Positions 2,781 through 5,230 of a stretch of DNA of 8,145 nt are shown in pieces. Under the pieces are notes generated by a model. That model did not search any database. It worked only from the letters and a program-made list of their open reading frames with translations, and was not told the origin of the DNA. Source of the stretch: a virus (taxonomy: Duplodnaviria > Heunggongvirae > Uroviricota > Caudoviricetes); the IMG/VR virus record IMGVR_UViG_2690316231_000015; one strand, written 5' to 3'. Within the stretch, counting starts at the first letter, position 1; each line of letters opens with the position of its first letter. A program made the translations under genes and the position numbers.

Positions 2781-2817
2781 TTTTAATTTCACTGAAATTT
2801 AATACGTGACTTTCAGG

Positions 2818-2847
2818 AAAATGCCTCGCAGATGCGGGGCATTTTTG
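2818..2847 (+). terminator. Rho-independent terminator after Rz (possibly bidirectional)
   Basis: Hairpin AUGCCUCGC (2821-2829) / loop AGAU / GCGGGGCAU (2834-2842): 9 bp with one G-U wobble, followed by UUUU (2843-2846). An A-tract (2818-2820) upstream gives a short U-tract on the other strand. Confidence 0.55.
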
Positions 2848-3139
2848 TACAGGTATTTCACCGCGCACCGCAGCGCACTCAACCACGTCGAACCAAACCC
2901 TTTGGAATGAGCCTTTGAGTAGTCAGTTAGTGCTGGTGAGCCTTGACGGGCTGATCTCCTATGCAGCAAAGGTTCATCTCAAAGTAAGACGAACGCTATG
3001 ACAAACCAAGATTCTATAGACCTATCTGATCTTCGTGGAATGGTCAGTTTTCCAGACAAAAGGTAATCACCATAGTCGTATGGCTATGAATCTTGTTGCT
3101 GCAGATAAGCATTTTGTGATTGAAGTGGTCAAATCTCTC

Positions 3140-3168
3140 AAATGCAGTAAAATGCAGTGCGCTATAAT
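3140..3168 (+). promoter_or_regulatory. Candidate sigma70 promoter for the 206-aa gene (consensus -10, weak -35)
   Basis: Perfect TATAAT at 3163-3168, 28 nt upstream of the ATG at 3197. No good TTGACA match at 16-18 bp spacing. Tandem AATGCAGT direct repeat at 3141-3158 just upstream. Confidence 0.3.
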
Positions 3169-3196: not shown

Positions 3197-3817
3197 ATGA
3201 AAGATCAAGATGTTAGGTTCGCGGTGCATCATAAGCTTTTGAAAGAATCGCATTTAGATCCAGACTGCCTTGTGGTCGATGAATTTTCCATATCCCTTGG
3301 CGCCAGTAGAGCAGACATTGCTGTAATAAATGGTGTTATACACGGGTACGAGCTCAAAAGTGAATATGACTCTTTGGAGCGTTTGCCTCTTCAAATCAAG
3401 CATTATTCTTCTGTAATGGACAAGGTTACTCTTGTCGTAGCTGAGAAACACCTTGAGGGAGCATTAAAGTTAATCCCAGGTTGGTGGGGCGTTAAAACGG
3501 TTTCTGTTGGGCCAAAAGGCGCCATTCTTATAAAGCACATGCGTGGAGAAAAGCTTAATCGAAACCATGACACATTGATGCTCGCTCAATTGCTTTGGAA
3601 AGATGAATGTATCGACGTACTTGAACGATGGGGCTATTCCAAAGGAATCAAAAGCAAGCCCCGATTTGAGTTATGGAATATTATTGCGGAAAATATTCCA
3701 ATAGCGAATCTCAGGCCTGAAGTCAGAACAGCCTTAAAGAAACGCGTAGGCTGGAAAGTTAAGGCTTGGCAGGCTGAGTCTGCGCCAACCAATAAAGCTG
3801 TCTCACGACTAACGTAA
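3197..3817 (+). CDS. Hypothetical protein with N-terminal PD-(D/E)xK nuclease-like motif (putative restriction-endonuclease-fold protein)
   Basis: 206-aa ORF with strong RBS (AAGGAG at 3186-3191, 5-nt spacer). Motif E29...D40...E52-L-K54 (VVDEF / RADIAVING / GYELK) in an alpha-beta-beta-beta arrangement typical of PD-(D/E)xK enzymes. Hand-counted GC ~43% in 3301-3400, lower than flanking phage genes. Confidence 0.7.
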   Translation: MKDQDVRFAVHHKLLKESHLDPDCLVVDEFSISLGASRADIAVINGVIHGYELKSEYDSLERLPLQIKHYSSVMDKVTLVVAEKHLEGALKLIPGWWGVKTVSVGPKGAILIKHMRGEKLNRNHDTLMLAQLLWKDECIDVLERWGYSKGIKSKPRFELWNIIAENIPIANLRPEVRTALKKRVGWKVKAWQAESAPTNKAVSRLT

Positions 3818-4826
3818 TATGGTGCGTATGTGCAACTTTACGCCATTCTTTAGAGCCGCCAGATTTGTTAGCGCCTAATGATCTTTGGTAAATGTAATCA
3901 TCCCCCCAACTAAATTTGGAGCCAAAGACTTGATACTCTGGCGAACTAACAAGGGTAGTACATAAGTTTTTAGTTTGGCCCCATCCATTTCCTTTAACTG
4001 CGGTACCTTTTACAAAGATCCATGAGGTATCGTTCGAATATCTCACTGAGACATACTGAGACATGAAGCGTGGGTCTACGCTCGTAATGGTAGAGCTAGC
4101 GGTGGGATAATCACTAAAACTTGGCGTTCTTCCATTGCTAAAATTCTGTACTACGTACATCCAAAGATCGTATTCATGGCGCGGAATATGATGAACTTGA
4201 TGTTGCGGTATCCCTGCCTGTGATGCCGGGTATGCGGTTGAAGATAAAATCAAGTTTCTCCACGGAGCTTGGCCTGATAATGTGTTGACCATGCTTAATG
4301 CTTGTTGTTTTAAACTATCAGTTGCGTTTTGAATATCTCCAAAATCAATGATTACATCAATTAAACTAGGATGAATATTTAAGTGGTTAACCAGACTTGT
4401 GAATTGGTGCCATGTCTGGGGGGTGATAGACATAGCGAGCCCATTGATTAAGTTGCGTTGAACAGCATGTATATAGTTTGTTGAATATGCGGGAGAAACA
4501 ACAGGGATAATTTCCTTACCATTTACTCTAGCATCTTGGATACACATATCTAGAGGATGATGGCGGCTCGAACCATGTTTATCTAAATATTTAACATCCA
4601 GCAAAACAGGACGATTGGCTTTCCAGGATGCCGCAAGGTTAATACCGAAGTCAGATAAGTAAGAACTCAAACTCTTCTTGTAGCATTCGTTTTCATAATC
4701 CCAGTCTATGTCTGGAATGGTAATGATCGGAGTAAAACCAGAGAGCGTAGTTTGATCTAAAAGCATCAGAGATTCATATTCAGCAGGCTTCCATTTCAGC
4801 TGTGGATAATATTGATGTTGACTCAT
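3759..4826 (-). CDS. Hypothetical protein, 355 aa, no recognisable motif; convergent partner of the 206-aa gene
   Basis: Long minus-strand ORF with strong RBS (AAGGAG, plus-strand complement CTCCTT at 4832-4837, 5-nt spacer to the ATG at 4826). Hydrophilic, rich in S/T/N/Q/W/Y/H, no TMD, no Walker motif. AT-rich (hand-counted GC 29% in 4301-4400, 48% in 4201-4300). Its 3' end overlaps the 206-aa gene by 59 bp. Confidence 0.7.
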   Translation of the reverse strand: MSQHQYYPQLKWKPAEYESLMLLDQTTLSGFTPIITIPDIDWDYENECYKKSLSSYLSDFGINLAASWKANRPVLLDVKYLDKHGSSRHHPLDMCIQDARVNGKEIIPVVSPAYSTNYIHAVQRNLINGLAMSITPQTWHQFTSLVNHLNIHPSLIDVIIDFGDIQNATDSLKQQALSMVNTLSGQAPWRNLILSSTAYPASQAGIPQHQVHHIPRHEYDLWMYVVQNFSNGRTPSFSDYPTASSTITSVDPRFMSQYVSVRYSNDTSWIFVKGTAVKGNGWGQTKNLCTTLVSSPEYQVFGSKFSWGDDYIYQRSLGANKSGGSKEWRKVAHTHHITLVVRQLYWLAQTQPAKP

Positions 4827-4868: not shown

Positions 4869-4893
4869 TGGCGTAACGCCAATTGTTTTTATA
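4869..4893 (-). promoter_or_regulatory. Candidate promoter -10 plus palindromic operator-like site upstream of the 355-aa gene
   Basis: Minus-strand TATAAA (plus coordinates 4888-4893) about 60 nt upstream of the start. 13-bp palindrome TGGCGTAACGCCA (4869-4881) lies between the -10 and the RBS, where an operator would sit. No convincing -35. Confidence 0.25.
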
Positions 4894-5049
4894 CACTTGA
4901 AAACATTGGGAAAAGTTGAGCTATATCTAAATTTACAAAATTGGATGTTATAGAAATCGAGGTTTCAACTAGGCATGGAACTGCAAAATTTTTAATGCCT
5001 GCACGCGAAAGTCGTTGGCGGGTCCTTTCCGGTGATCCAGATCGTTACG

Positions 5050-5061
5050 GGGCGGCGACCT
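5050..5061 (+). other. cos: Lambda-type cos site: cosN cohesive-end sequence GGGCGGCGACCT, with flanking cosQ-like and cosB-like sequence (~5010-5130)
   Basis: 5050-5090 (GGGCGGCGACCTCGCGGGTTTTCGCTATTTATGAAAATTTT) is identical to the left end of the lambda genome as I recall it. Upstream GGGTCCTTTCCGGTGATCC...GTTACG resembles the lambda right end. Downstream CCGTTCTTCTTC (5107-5118) resembles a cosB R-site. Sits ~170 bp upstream of the Nu1-like gene. Confidence 0.85.
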
Positions 5062-5230
5062 CGCGGGTTTTCGCTATTTATGAAAATTTTTAGGGAAAAA
5101 TCAGATCCGTTCTTCTTCTTTTTAACTGATTGATTATCAATAGAATTTTAAAAATATAAAAGGATCTGACAAAGGCTGTTTTTGTTAGAAAACGCCATTT
5201 TCAGATCCTTTCTGGTTCCCGGGGGAGTGT

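What the first reader, a model, noticed from the sequence alone, without database searches (positions are those of the whole stretch)
3759..3817. Convergent genes whose 3' ends overlap by 59 bp with no terminator between them
The 206-aa (+) and 355-aa (-) reading frames overlap tail to tail, and I see no intrinsic terminator between them, so transcripts from each gene would be antisense to the 3' end of the other. This could give mutual transcriptional interference or antisense regulation, as in some toxin-antitoxin or abortive-infection pairs, or one C-terminus may be shorter than the ORF suggests.
Basis: seen in the sequence. Interest (0 to 1): 0.45.

Follow-up and report, generated by a model that had tools for sequence, protein, structure and literature searches.

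The report
Conserved tail-to-tail overlap, beta/cII-like genes
The 59-bp overlap is real and joins two prophage genes related to known anti-phage defence parts; the tail-to-tail overlap is ancient and widespread in this gene pair, but most of its length here comes from one ordinary lost stop codon.

Summary
Confirmed. A 206-aa sce7726/P4-cII-like gene (+, 3197-3817) and a 355-aa Beta-family gene (-, 3759-4826) overlap by 59 bp, with no terminator-like site or stable hairpin between them. RefSeq annotates the same coordinates. The pair is an AT-rich accessory cassette in a lambdoid E. coli prophage, between the lysis genes and cos.

The architecture is ancient. In 53 of 55 loci (52 of the 54 besides this window) from many phyla, the two genes converge and overlap by 10-158 bp. 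In 42 loci the conserved C-terminal residues of both proteins are encoded on opposite strands of the same ~15 nt.

The window's lineage has 39 extra nt, and its closest relatives overlap by only 11 bp. The other 48 bp come from one TAG->TGG change that is silent in Beta. It adds 16 non-conserved sce7726 residues within a C-terminal stretch (189-206) predicted to be disordered.

Both full-length mRNAs must therefore be complementary at their 3' ends. Whether this regulates expression is inferred, not shown.

The proteins relate to P4 gop-beta-cII and PD-lambda-2, but gop and the HigB/peptidase genes are absent, so this is a two-gene variant. Three E. coli strains carry IS-disrupted Beta with intact sce7726, which argues against a strict toxin-antitoxin pair.

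The parts
3197..3817 (+). sce7726-family / P4 cII-like gene (206 aa). It has a PD-(D/E)XK nuclease-like fold, and the conserved core ends at about residue 187 (window ~3757).
   Evidence: NCBIfam NF033832 E 2.3e-54, matching residues 1-183. PADLOC 'cll' E 3.8e-31. D40, E52 and K54 are invariant. AF2 pLDDT 88.8. Best Foldseek hit is SfsA 4dav, E 7e-4.
3759..4826 (-). Beta-family gene (355 aa), TIM-barrel-like, with a long C-terminal helix (residues 325-350) that runs into the overlap.
   Evidence: Pfam PF14350 E 8e-56 over residues 6-342. PADLOC PD-Lambda-2_C 4e-32 and 'beta' 3e-10. AF2 pLDDT 90.7. Foldseek hits to TrpA/TIM barrels at E ~3e-4. The C-terminus is conserved in homologues.
3759..3817 (.). 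The 59-bp tail-to-tail overlap. It covers the Beta stop plus residues 338-355 (and 2 nt of I337), and sce7726 residues 189-206 plus its stop. Codon phase is 1:1, 2:3, 3:2.
   Evidence: This phase (123:132) is the commonest for convergent overlaps >=5 nt (PMC2174442).
3759..3769 (.). The 11-bp overlap shared with the closest relatives (Edwardsiella, Klebsiella, Pantoea, Pectobacterium). In them the sce7726 stop is a TAG at the position of window 3767-3769.
3767..3817 (+). Lineage-specific read-through tail of sce7726 (W191-T206 plus TAA). TAG became TGG by A->G at 3768, which is silent in Beta (Ala353 GCT->GCC). The next stop, TAA 3815-3817, is formed by the complement of Beta codons I337-T338.
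   Evidence: DNA alignment. C-terminal protein alignment. Residues 189-206 have pLDDT < 50.
3126..3153 (+). Promoter-like site upstream of sce7726 (TGGTCA-16-TAAAAT). This is a consensus match only.
5133..5172 (-). Two overlapping promoter-like sites on the Beta strand, beyond cos. These are consensus matches only.
4869..4891 (+). Terminator-like hairpin plus T-run on the + strand, just upstream of the Beta start. It is the first terminator-like site that a transcript leaving sce7726 would meet, after crossing all of Beta in antisense.
5050..5061 (+). Lambda-type cohesive-end sequence GGGCGGCGACCT (cos). The cassette lies directly beside it.
   Evidence: The identification of the lambda cos sequence is from my own knowledge.

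Best explanation
Two real genes form an AT-rich accessory cassette in a lambdoid E. coli prophage, between the lysis genes and cos. One is a P4 cII-like protein of the sce7726 family with a PD-(D/E)XK nuclease-like fold. The other is a P4 beta-like protein with a TIM-barrel-like fold. Converging with overlapping 3' ends is the ancestral architecture of this pair across bacterial phyla and in some phages. In most lineages the last conserved residues of both proteins (sce7726 R-x-N-W-R, Beta Q-[IL]-[AS]-[NS]-L) are encoded on opposite strands of the same ~15 nt. The sce7726 frame then stays open antisense to the Beta C-terminal helix until a Beta dipeptide happens to create a stop. In the window's lineage 39 extra nt separate the two conserved ends, leaving an 11-bp overlap. 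One TAG->TGG change, silent in Beta, then extended sce7726 by 16 unconstrained residues, which lie in a predicted-disordered tail, giving 59 bp. That extra length is an ordinary, probably neutral, stop-codon-loss overlap. Because each stop codon lies inside the other gene and there is no terminator or conserved hairpin, the two complete mRNAs must be complementary over at least 59 nt and the polymerases must meet head-on. I infer that this couples and mutually dampens expression of the two genes and keeps them an inseparable unit. The steps shown here are gene identity, conservation of the overlap, dual coding, origin of the extension, and absence of a terminator or structure. The steps inferred are the regulatory effect (my estimate ~0.4) and the anti-phage role of the cassette.
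For: Gene identity. Conservation: 53 of 55 loci overlap, 48 of 55 are in the same phase, and 42 of 55 have exactly 16 nt between the sce7726 R183 codon and the Beta Q343 codon. Independent gene calls show a 50-bp overlap in loci found by starting from a different protein. Rac-SA53 overlaps by 41 bp and Gordonia phage DumpsterDude by 89 bp. Dual coding: wobble variability is on the sce7726 frame up to offset -1, all three positions are constrained at offsets 0-14, and the wobble is on the Beta frame from offset 15 on (sequences). Origin of the extension. Stop-codon mutation is the usual origin of convergent overlaps, and phase 123:132 is the commonest (PMC2174442). No terminator or structure. 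Terminator-like sites near the junction occur in 9 and 11 of 55 loci against ~0.21 expected per window from the loci's own density, so they are not enriched. Mean folding z is -0.29 and -0.07, and RNAalifold predicts 0 pairs. Defence context: gop-beta-cII protects against lambda and P1 (PMC9122126), and PD-lambda-2C is a Beta-family protein required for defence (PMC9519451). The cassette is ~40-43% GC and lies beside cos. Head-on RNAP collisions at convergent E. coli genes are documented (bioRxiv 10.1101/2022.10.23.513370).
Against: No transcript data were available, so promoter activity, 3' ends and any antisense effect are untested. The overlap is dispensable in some lineages: P4 has a 27-bp gap with an annotated terminator, and L007 and L010 have gaps of 14 and 39 bp. 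Overlap length varies from 10 to 158 bp, so no particular length is selected. Deep conservation could be a ratchet, because shared codons are hard to separate, rather than selection for regulation. The two-gene cassette itself has not been tested for defence. Three E. coli genomes tolerate IS insertions in Beta.
Confidence: 0.65

Rival explanations
1. The overlap is a frozen accident with no regulatory role. The pair became dual-coded once and the junction is simply hard to undo. Transcripts are ended soon after each stop by Rho or by polymerase collision, and expression of the two genes is effectively independent.
For: Overlap length is highly variable, and three lineages lost the overlap without losing the genes. 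The tail evolves neutrally. There is no conserved RNA structure. The origin by stop loss and the phase are both the commonest kind.
Against: Both stop codons lie inside the partner gene, so complete mRNAs are necessarily complementary over the overlap. The terminator-less convergent arrangement persists from Firmicutes to CPR bacteria and actinophages. In P4, where the genes are separated, a terminator is annotated in the gap.
Confidence: 0.35
2. The overlap is a dedicated cis-antisense switch at the core of a toxin-antitoxin or abortive-infection mechanism. One protein is a toxin held down by the partner's antisense transcript or by the partner protein, and infection tips the balance.
For: Related systems are TA-like or Abi: gop is toxic without beta, PD-lambda-2B is toxic, and orf184 triggers cell death through gop-beta-cII. 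sce7726 has a nuclease-like fold. In this prophage, sce7726 is co-oriented with the late operon and Beta is opposed to it.
Against: Three independent E. coli genomes carry IS5, IS1 or IS66-family insertions in Beta with an intact 206-aa sce7726, so Beta is not an essential antidote. In the known systems the toxins are gop or the Xre-peptidase, and both are absent here. Both partners are sizeable proteins, unlike type I TA pairs. The overlap is absent in P4 itself.
Confidence: 0.15
3. The overlap is an annotation or sequence artefact: one ORF is not a gene, or a sequencing error removed a stop codon.
For: Long convergent overlaps are often mis-annotations (general knowledge). The sce7726 tail is not conserved.
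Against: Both ORFs score far above curated family cutoffs. Identical sequence is found in many independently assembled complete genomes. The Beta C-terminus is conserved and predicted helical. A second lineage (Cronobacter P0002, 202 aa) also extends past the usual end at residue 190.
Confidence: 0.03
4. A bidirectional terminator or structured RNA element is embedded in the coding overlap and defines both 3' ends.
For: Some E. coli convergent overlapping genes do carry rho-independent terminators inside the partner gene (PMC2174442). The three Firmicutes loci have a terminator-like hairpin just after the Beta stop.
Against: No terminator-like site in the window, no excess folding energy, no enrichment of terminator-like sites across 55 loci, and no consensus structure.
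Confidence: 0.03

Closest known systems
P4 satellite gop-beta-cII (an anti-phage system in the P4 hotspot next to cos; Ghisotti 1990, Rousset 2022)
   Same: Both have a Beta-family protein of 355 aa and a cII/sce7726-family protein encoded convergently. Both sit in a mobile element beside cos. RefSeq names P4 cII 'sce7726 family protein'.
   Different: There is no gop here. P4 cII is 264 aa with a C-terminal extension. P4 beta and cII do not overlap: they are separated by 27 bp holding an annotated terminator. Similarity is distant: sce7726 is 27% identical to cII, and Beta matches the PADLOC 'beta' model at only 3e-10.
PD-lambda-2 (Vassallo 2022): HigB-like A, Xre-M78 peptidase B, Beta-like C
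   Same: The window's Beta matches PD-Lambda-2_C models best, at 4e-32. In 24 related loci the same convergent sce7726 gene overlaps the C gene of a complete A-B-C operon.
   Different: A and B are absent from the window. The published system has three genes and no cII-like gene. The published clone extends only 396 bp beyond C, so any convergent cII-like gene would have been truncated in it.
Rac-SA53 prophage 'CII phage-like protein' / 'beta' pair
   Same: It is a two-gene convergent pair in an E. coli lambdoid prophage, overlapping by 41 bp, and the depositors already linked it to P4 cII and beta.
   Different: It belongs to a different sequence class (sce7726 54% identical, Beta 30%), sits in the early region near hok/mok, and has the ancestral 16-nt spacing rather than the window's 55-nt spacing.
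Generic convergent overlapping genes created by stop-codon mutation (Lillo & Krakauer 2007)
   Same: The phase is 123:132, the extension arose by loss of a stop codon, and there is no intrinsic terminator.
   Different: Typical convergent overlaps are short, with a mode of 4 bp. Here the underlying overlap is conserved across phyla and includes conserved residues of both proteins.
Type I toxin-antitoxin pairs with 3'-overlapping convergent RNAs (e.g. B. subtilis txpA/RatA, bsrG/SR4; from my own knowledge)
   Same: Transcription is convergent and gives complementary 3' ends.
   Different: Those pairs join a small toxic peptide mRNA to a non-coding RNA. Here both partners encode conserved proteins of 206 and 355 aa, and no toxicity is known.

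Membership tests
sce7726 family (NCBIfam NF033832) / Pfam PF26915 Phage_P4_cII | Whole-protein score above the curated cutoff of the family model | tested here: met
   184.1 bits against a cutoff of 70, matching residues 1-183. Homologues carry precomputed PF26915. The local Pfam copy lacks this model.
Beta_protein (Pfam PF14350) | Whole-protein score above the gathering threshold, with a full-length match | tested here: met
   190.3 bits against 27, profile positions 1-342 of 342.
gop-beta-cII defence system | A gop gene immediately upstream of beta in the same operon | tested here: not met
   The only ORF >=50 aa between the Beta start (4826) and Nu1 (5231) is a 50-aa + strand ORF at 4941-5093; none lies on Beta's strand, and cos is there. 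phmmer with P4 Gop finds nothing in any of the loci.
gop-beta-cII defence system | A beta gene and a cII gene, adjacent and convergent | tested here: met
   PADLOC 'beta' 3.3e-10 and 'cll' 3.8e-31. The orientation is the same as in P4.
gop-beta-cII defence system | Protection against phage (lambda, P1) | not testable with these tools
   This was shown only for the P4-type three-gene system (PMC9122126).
PD-lambda-2 defence system | HigB-like A and Xre-HTH/M78-peptidase B upstream of the Beta-like C | tested here: not met
   Both are absent from the window. They are present in 24 related loci.
PD-lambda-2 defence system | A Beta-family third component | tested here: met
   PD-Lambda-2_C models at 4.1e-32 and 1.7e-25.
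PD-(D/E)XK nuclease superfamily (for sce7726) | Restriction-endonuclease-like fold with a D...(D/E)xK motif | tested here: inconclusive
   D40, E52 and K54 are invariant in 27 homologues. The best Foldseek hits are SfsA, tRNA-splicing endonuclease, XPF and Can2, but they are weak (E 7e-4, TM 0.35). Activity was not tested.
Type I toxin-antitoxin (cis-antisense, 3'-overlapping) | A small toxic peptide mRNA paired with a non-coding antisense RNA | tested here: not met
   Both strands encode conserved proteins. Beta disruption is tolerated.
Type II toxin-antitoxin (Beta as antitoxin of sce7726) | The antitoxin cannot be lost while the toxin is intact | tested here: not met
   IS5, IS1 and IS66-family insertions in Beta, each with intact sce7726, in three E. 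coli genomes. This is indirect, because expression is unknown.
Convergent overlap by stop-codon mutation | Relatives keep an earlier in-frame stop, and the extension is unconstrained at protein level | tested here: met
   TAG in four relatives against TGG here. Tail lengths differ among close homologues.

The most novel reading that the evidence does not exclude
The beta/cII-like (sce7726) pair is a self-contained module whose dual-coded, terminator-less tail-to-tail junction acts as a conserved cis-antisense coupling device. The module is the common core of a widespread group of defence systems: it stands alone here, carries gop in P4, and carries HigB plus an Xre-peptidase in PD-lambda-2-like operons. 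On this reading the cII-like gene would be an unrecognised fourth component of PD-lambda-2-type systems.
Probability: 0.2. Interest if true: 0.6.

Novelty: new variant of a known kind. Interest (0 to 1): 0.4.

Why it matters
Convergent overlaps of tens of bases are usually dismissed as annotation errors or recent accidents. Here one is conserved from Firmicutes to candidate-phyla bacteria and actinophages, and conserved residues of both proteins share the same DNA. That makes it a clean natural case for asking whether obligatory 3' mRNA complementarity and head-on transcription are used to balance two partners of a defence module. It also ties together two experimentally validated but mechanistically obscure systems (P4 gop-beta-cII and PD-lambda-2) through a shared beta + cII-like core. 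It suggests that cloned PD-lambda-2-type systems may be missing a partner gene. In practice, gene callers and manual curators can miss the cII-like gene because of the overlap, as happened in Gordonia phage DumpsterDude.

Tried and rejected
1. Embedded terminator or structured RNA at the junction: rejected. Evidence is the consensus scan, single-sequence folds, my own terminator scan of 55 loci showing no enrichment, folding z-scores, RNAalifold with 0 pairs and no Rfam hit.

2. Sequence-level evidence that the 39 extra nt in the window's lineage are a tandem duplication of the shared segment. By eye, 3743-3781 against 3782-3820 are only ~36% identical, so the idea is unsupported and I dropped it.

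3. Solved-structure relatives by sequence for sce7726: none.

4. Finding the published E. coli PD-lambda-2 locus (ECOR42), to see whether a cII-like gene follows gene C. The protein search with a PD-lambda-2B-like query returned only environmental relatives among its top 120. The two best plasmid hits I opened are more distant HigB-ImmA/IrrE pairs with no annotated Beta or sce7726 gene nearby. This stays unresolved.

5. Ghisotti et al. 1990, for P4 beta/cII transcript mapping, is not held in the library.

6. Literature searches for 'sce7726' and 'PF14350' found no functional study or description of the overlap.

7. IS insertions hitting only Beta (3 of 3) might suggest selection against Beta. 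Given the gene lengths the chance probability is about 0.28, so I make no such claim.

Full report
OBSERVATION. The ORF list gives a 206-aa ORF at 3197-3817 (+) and a 355-aa ORF at 3759-4826 (-). They share 3759-3817, which is 59 bp. RefSeq/PGAP annotates the same two genes with the same overlap in E. coli 55989. The 1.6-kb pair is >=99.3% identical in 127 complete E. coli genomes. A consensus scan finds no terminator-like site on either strand between 3277 and 4869. Folding the junction on either strand is no better than shuffled sequence (z +0.77 and -1.18). Rfam has no hit in the window.

WHAT THE GENES ARE. The + ORF is an sce7726-family protein (NCBIfam NF033832, 184 bits against a cutoff of 70). 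It matches the PADLOC model for P4 cII ('cll', 3.8e-31), and homologues carry Pfam PF26915 'Phage_P4_cII'. An AlphaFold model (pLDDT 88.8) most resembles PD-(D/E)XK-fold nucleases, though weakly (SfsA 4dav, E 7e-4, then tRNA-splicing endonuclease, XPF, Can2). D40, E52 and K54 are invariant in 27 homologues.

The - ORF is a full-length Beta_protein (PF14350, 190 bits). It is closest to PADLOC PD-Lambda-2_C (4e-32) and more distantly to P4 beta (3e-10). Its model (pLDDT 90.7) is an alternating beta/alpha fold that weakly resembles TIM barrels, ending in a long helix at residues 325-350.

The window itself is a lambdoid prophage: holin, lysozyme, Rz, then the cassette, then cos (GGGCGGCGACCT at 5050-5061), then terminase small and large subunits, the head-tail joining protein and portal. 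The cassette is 40-43% GC. In short, it is an accessory cassette beside cos. The P4 hotspot that holds gop-beta-cII is also adjacent to cos (PMC9122126).

THE OVERLAP IS A CONSERVED FEATURE OF THE GENE PAIR. I fetched 65 loci encoding sce7726 relatives, drawn from a collection with one genome per species. I located both genes in each with iterated profile searches over all ORFs. In every locus where both genes were found, Beta lies convergent to sce7726.

Of the 55 loci with both genes full length (window included), 53 overlap, by 10-158 bp. In 48 the overlap length is 2 mod 3, meaning the same codon phase. In 42 the first base of the invariant sce7726 R183 codon and the low end of the conserved Beta Q343 codon are exactly 16 nt apart. 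These 42 loci include Enterobacterales, Burkholderiales, Myxococcota, Acidobacteriota, Patescibacteria, Bacteroidota, Armatimonadota, Omnitrophota, Ignavibacteriota and Desulfobacterota.

Loci reached independently, by starting from a PD-lambda-2B-like protein, show a 50-bp overlap in other people's gene calls. E. coli prophage Rac-SA53 has a 41-bp overlap, and Gordonia phage DumpsterDude has an 89-bp overlap.

With the 16-nt spacing, sce7726 R-x-N-W-R and Beta Q-[IL]-[AS]-[NS]-L are read from opposite strands of the same ~15 nt. Per-position variability shows the hand-over directly. Upstream of offset 0 the variable position is the sce7726 wobble (mean entropy 1.88 against 1.03 at position 2). 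At offsets 0-14 all three positions are constrained (1.12, 0.65, 0.84). From offset 15 on, the variable position is the Beta wobble (1.59), the same as in Beta-only DNA (1.52).

So about 15 nt are truly dual-coding. Everything in sce7726 beyond W186-R187 is an unconstrained read-through antisense to the Beta C-terminal helix. In many loci that read-through ends where the conserved Beta dipeptide Ile-Asn forces TAA or TGA in the sce7726 frame.

WHAT IS SPECIAL ABOUT THIS WINDOW. The window and four relatives (Edwardsiella, Klebsiella, Pantoea, Pectobacterium) have a spacing of 55 instead of 16 nt. That is 39 more nt, so the phase is kept. In these five the conserved ends no longer share codons, and the four relatives overlap by only 11 bp.

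The DNA alignment shows that their sce7726 stop is a TAG at the position of window 3767-3769, whereas the window has TGG. The A->G change at 3768 is a silent third-position change in Beta (Ala353 GCT->GCC). The sce7726 frame then runs 16 codons further, to TAA at 3815-3817, which is formed by the complement of Beta I337-T338.

Homologues at 80-85% identity end at 190, 192 or 202 residues, so the stop position turns over freely. Residues 189-206 have pLDDT < 50. The Beta residues in the overlap, by contrast, are part of a confidently predicted helix and are conserved.

Loss of a stop codon is the usual origin of convergent overlaps, and the phase here (123:132) is the commonest for convergent overlaps of 5 nt or more (PMC2174442). 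The 59-bp length is therefore ordinary. The deeper architecture is not.

CONSEQUENCES AND MECHANISM. It follows directly from the sequence that each stop codon lies inside the other ORF. Two complete mRNAs are therefore complementary over at least 59 nt, and polymerases on one template must meet head-on.

There is no sign of a hidden terminator or RNA element anywhere in the family. Terminator-like sites near the junction occur in 9 and 11 of 55 loci, against about 0.21 expected per window from the loci's own density, so they are not enriched. Mean folding z is -0.29 and -0.07, and RNAalifold predicts no pairs. In the window, the first + strand terminator-like site after sce7726 is at 4869-4891, beyond the whole Beta gene. 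Transcripts leaving sce7726, and prophage late transcripts, which run the same way, would therefore be antisense to all of Beta unless Rho stops them.

I infer that the arrangement couples and mutually limits expression of the two genes and keeps them inseparable. Head-on RNAP collisions at convergent E. coli genes are documented (bioRxiv 10.1101/2022.10.23.513370). I put the probability of a selected regulatory role at about 0.4.

Three things weigh against it. P4 itself separates beta and cII by 27 bp with an annotated terminator. Two other lineages have small gaps. And a shared-codon junction could persist simply because it is hard to undo.

RELATION TO KNOWN SYSTEMS. P4 gop-beta-cII protects against lambda and P1 (PMC9122126) and is triggered by a phage accessory gene (bioRxiv 10.1101/2023.04.06.535777). 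PD-lambda-2C is a Beta-family protein needed for defence (PMC9519451).

The window has neither gop nor the HigB-like and Xre-peptidase genes. It therefore fails membership of both systems and is best described as a two-gene variant built from their shared parts. In 24 of my loci the same convergent sce7726 gene overlaps the third gene of a complete PD-lambda-2-like operon, while more distant HigB-ImmA/IrrE pairs lack both genes. Beta + cII-like thus behaves as a module that is combined with different upstream genes.

Three E. coli genomes have IS5, IS1 or IS66-family insertions in Beta with an intact sce7726. This argues against Beta being an indispensable antitoxin for sce7726.

VERDICT. The extra length of the overlap in this window is a mundane stop-codon loss that adds an unconstrained tail within a predicted-disordered C-terminal stretch. 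The tail-to-tail, terminator-less, partly dual-coding junction of the beta/cII-like pair is ancient and widespread, and my literature searches did not find it described. Its function remains inferred. Interest is moderate (0.4), and it is a new variant of a known kind.

Noticed in passing
L025 3043-6291; also L027, L068-L072 and about 20 other loci: A complete PD-lambda-2-like operon (HigB_toxin, Xre-HTH/Peptidase_M78, Beta) is followed by a convergent sce7726/Phage_P4_cII gene that overlaps the Beta gene by 50 bp. The published PD-lambda-2 has three genes, and its clone extends only 396 bp beyond gene C. The B-like protein family is very large (>7000 hits at E<=1e-20) and 63-75% identical among its best 120 hits, which include Patescibacteria and Scalindua (Planctomycetota).
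   Followed up: partly
L075 (strain 100416), L076 (strain 1532MA), L077 (strain RM10410); equivalent to the window's Beta gene 3759-4826: Three E. coli genomes carry IS5, IS1 or IS66-family insertions or truncations in the Beta gene while sce7726 stays intact at 206 aa. No genome was seen with the reverse pattern.
   Followed up: partly
L073 2456-3133 (+) (Gordonia phage DumpsterDude, MT024859.1 about 28621-29298): A clear sce7726 homologue (tblastn 43.5% identity, E 5e-43) is not annotated. A 216-nt gene 32 is called on the opposite strand instead. The unannotated ORF overlaps the Beta-like gene 33 by 89 bp. In the related phage Powerball, gene 32 is annotated 'exonuclease'.
   Followed up: partly
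window 2800-3002: About 200 bp between Rz and the cassette are ~85% identical to the P22 rha (anti-repressor) region. This looks like a remnant left by mosaic recombination.
   Followed up: no
window 4869-4891 (+) and 3071-3098 (+): Both terminator-like hairpins that flank the cassette are on the + strand. No terminator-like site was found on the - strand downstream of Beta, so Beta transcripts could run antisense through sce7726 and into the lysis genes.
   Followed up: no
L059 4490-4529, L062 4490-4529, L061 946-985 (- strand): The three Firmicutes loci (Streptococcaceae, Listeria, Enterococcus) use a different spacing (11 nt) and phase. They have a long terminator-like hairpin directly after the Beta stop, inside the 3' end of sce7726.
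   Followed up: no
window 5050-5061: A lambda-type cos sequence (GGGCGGCGACCT) lies ~220 bp from the Beta start. The only consensus promoter matches on Beta's strand (5133-5172) lie on the far side of cos, so in linear virion DNA they would be separated from the gene.
   Followed up: no
window 3676-3700: There is a 9-bp AT-rich inverted repeat (GGAATATTA...TAATATTCC on the - strand) inside the sce7726 coding sequence. No U-run follows it, so it is probably incidental.
   Followed up: no
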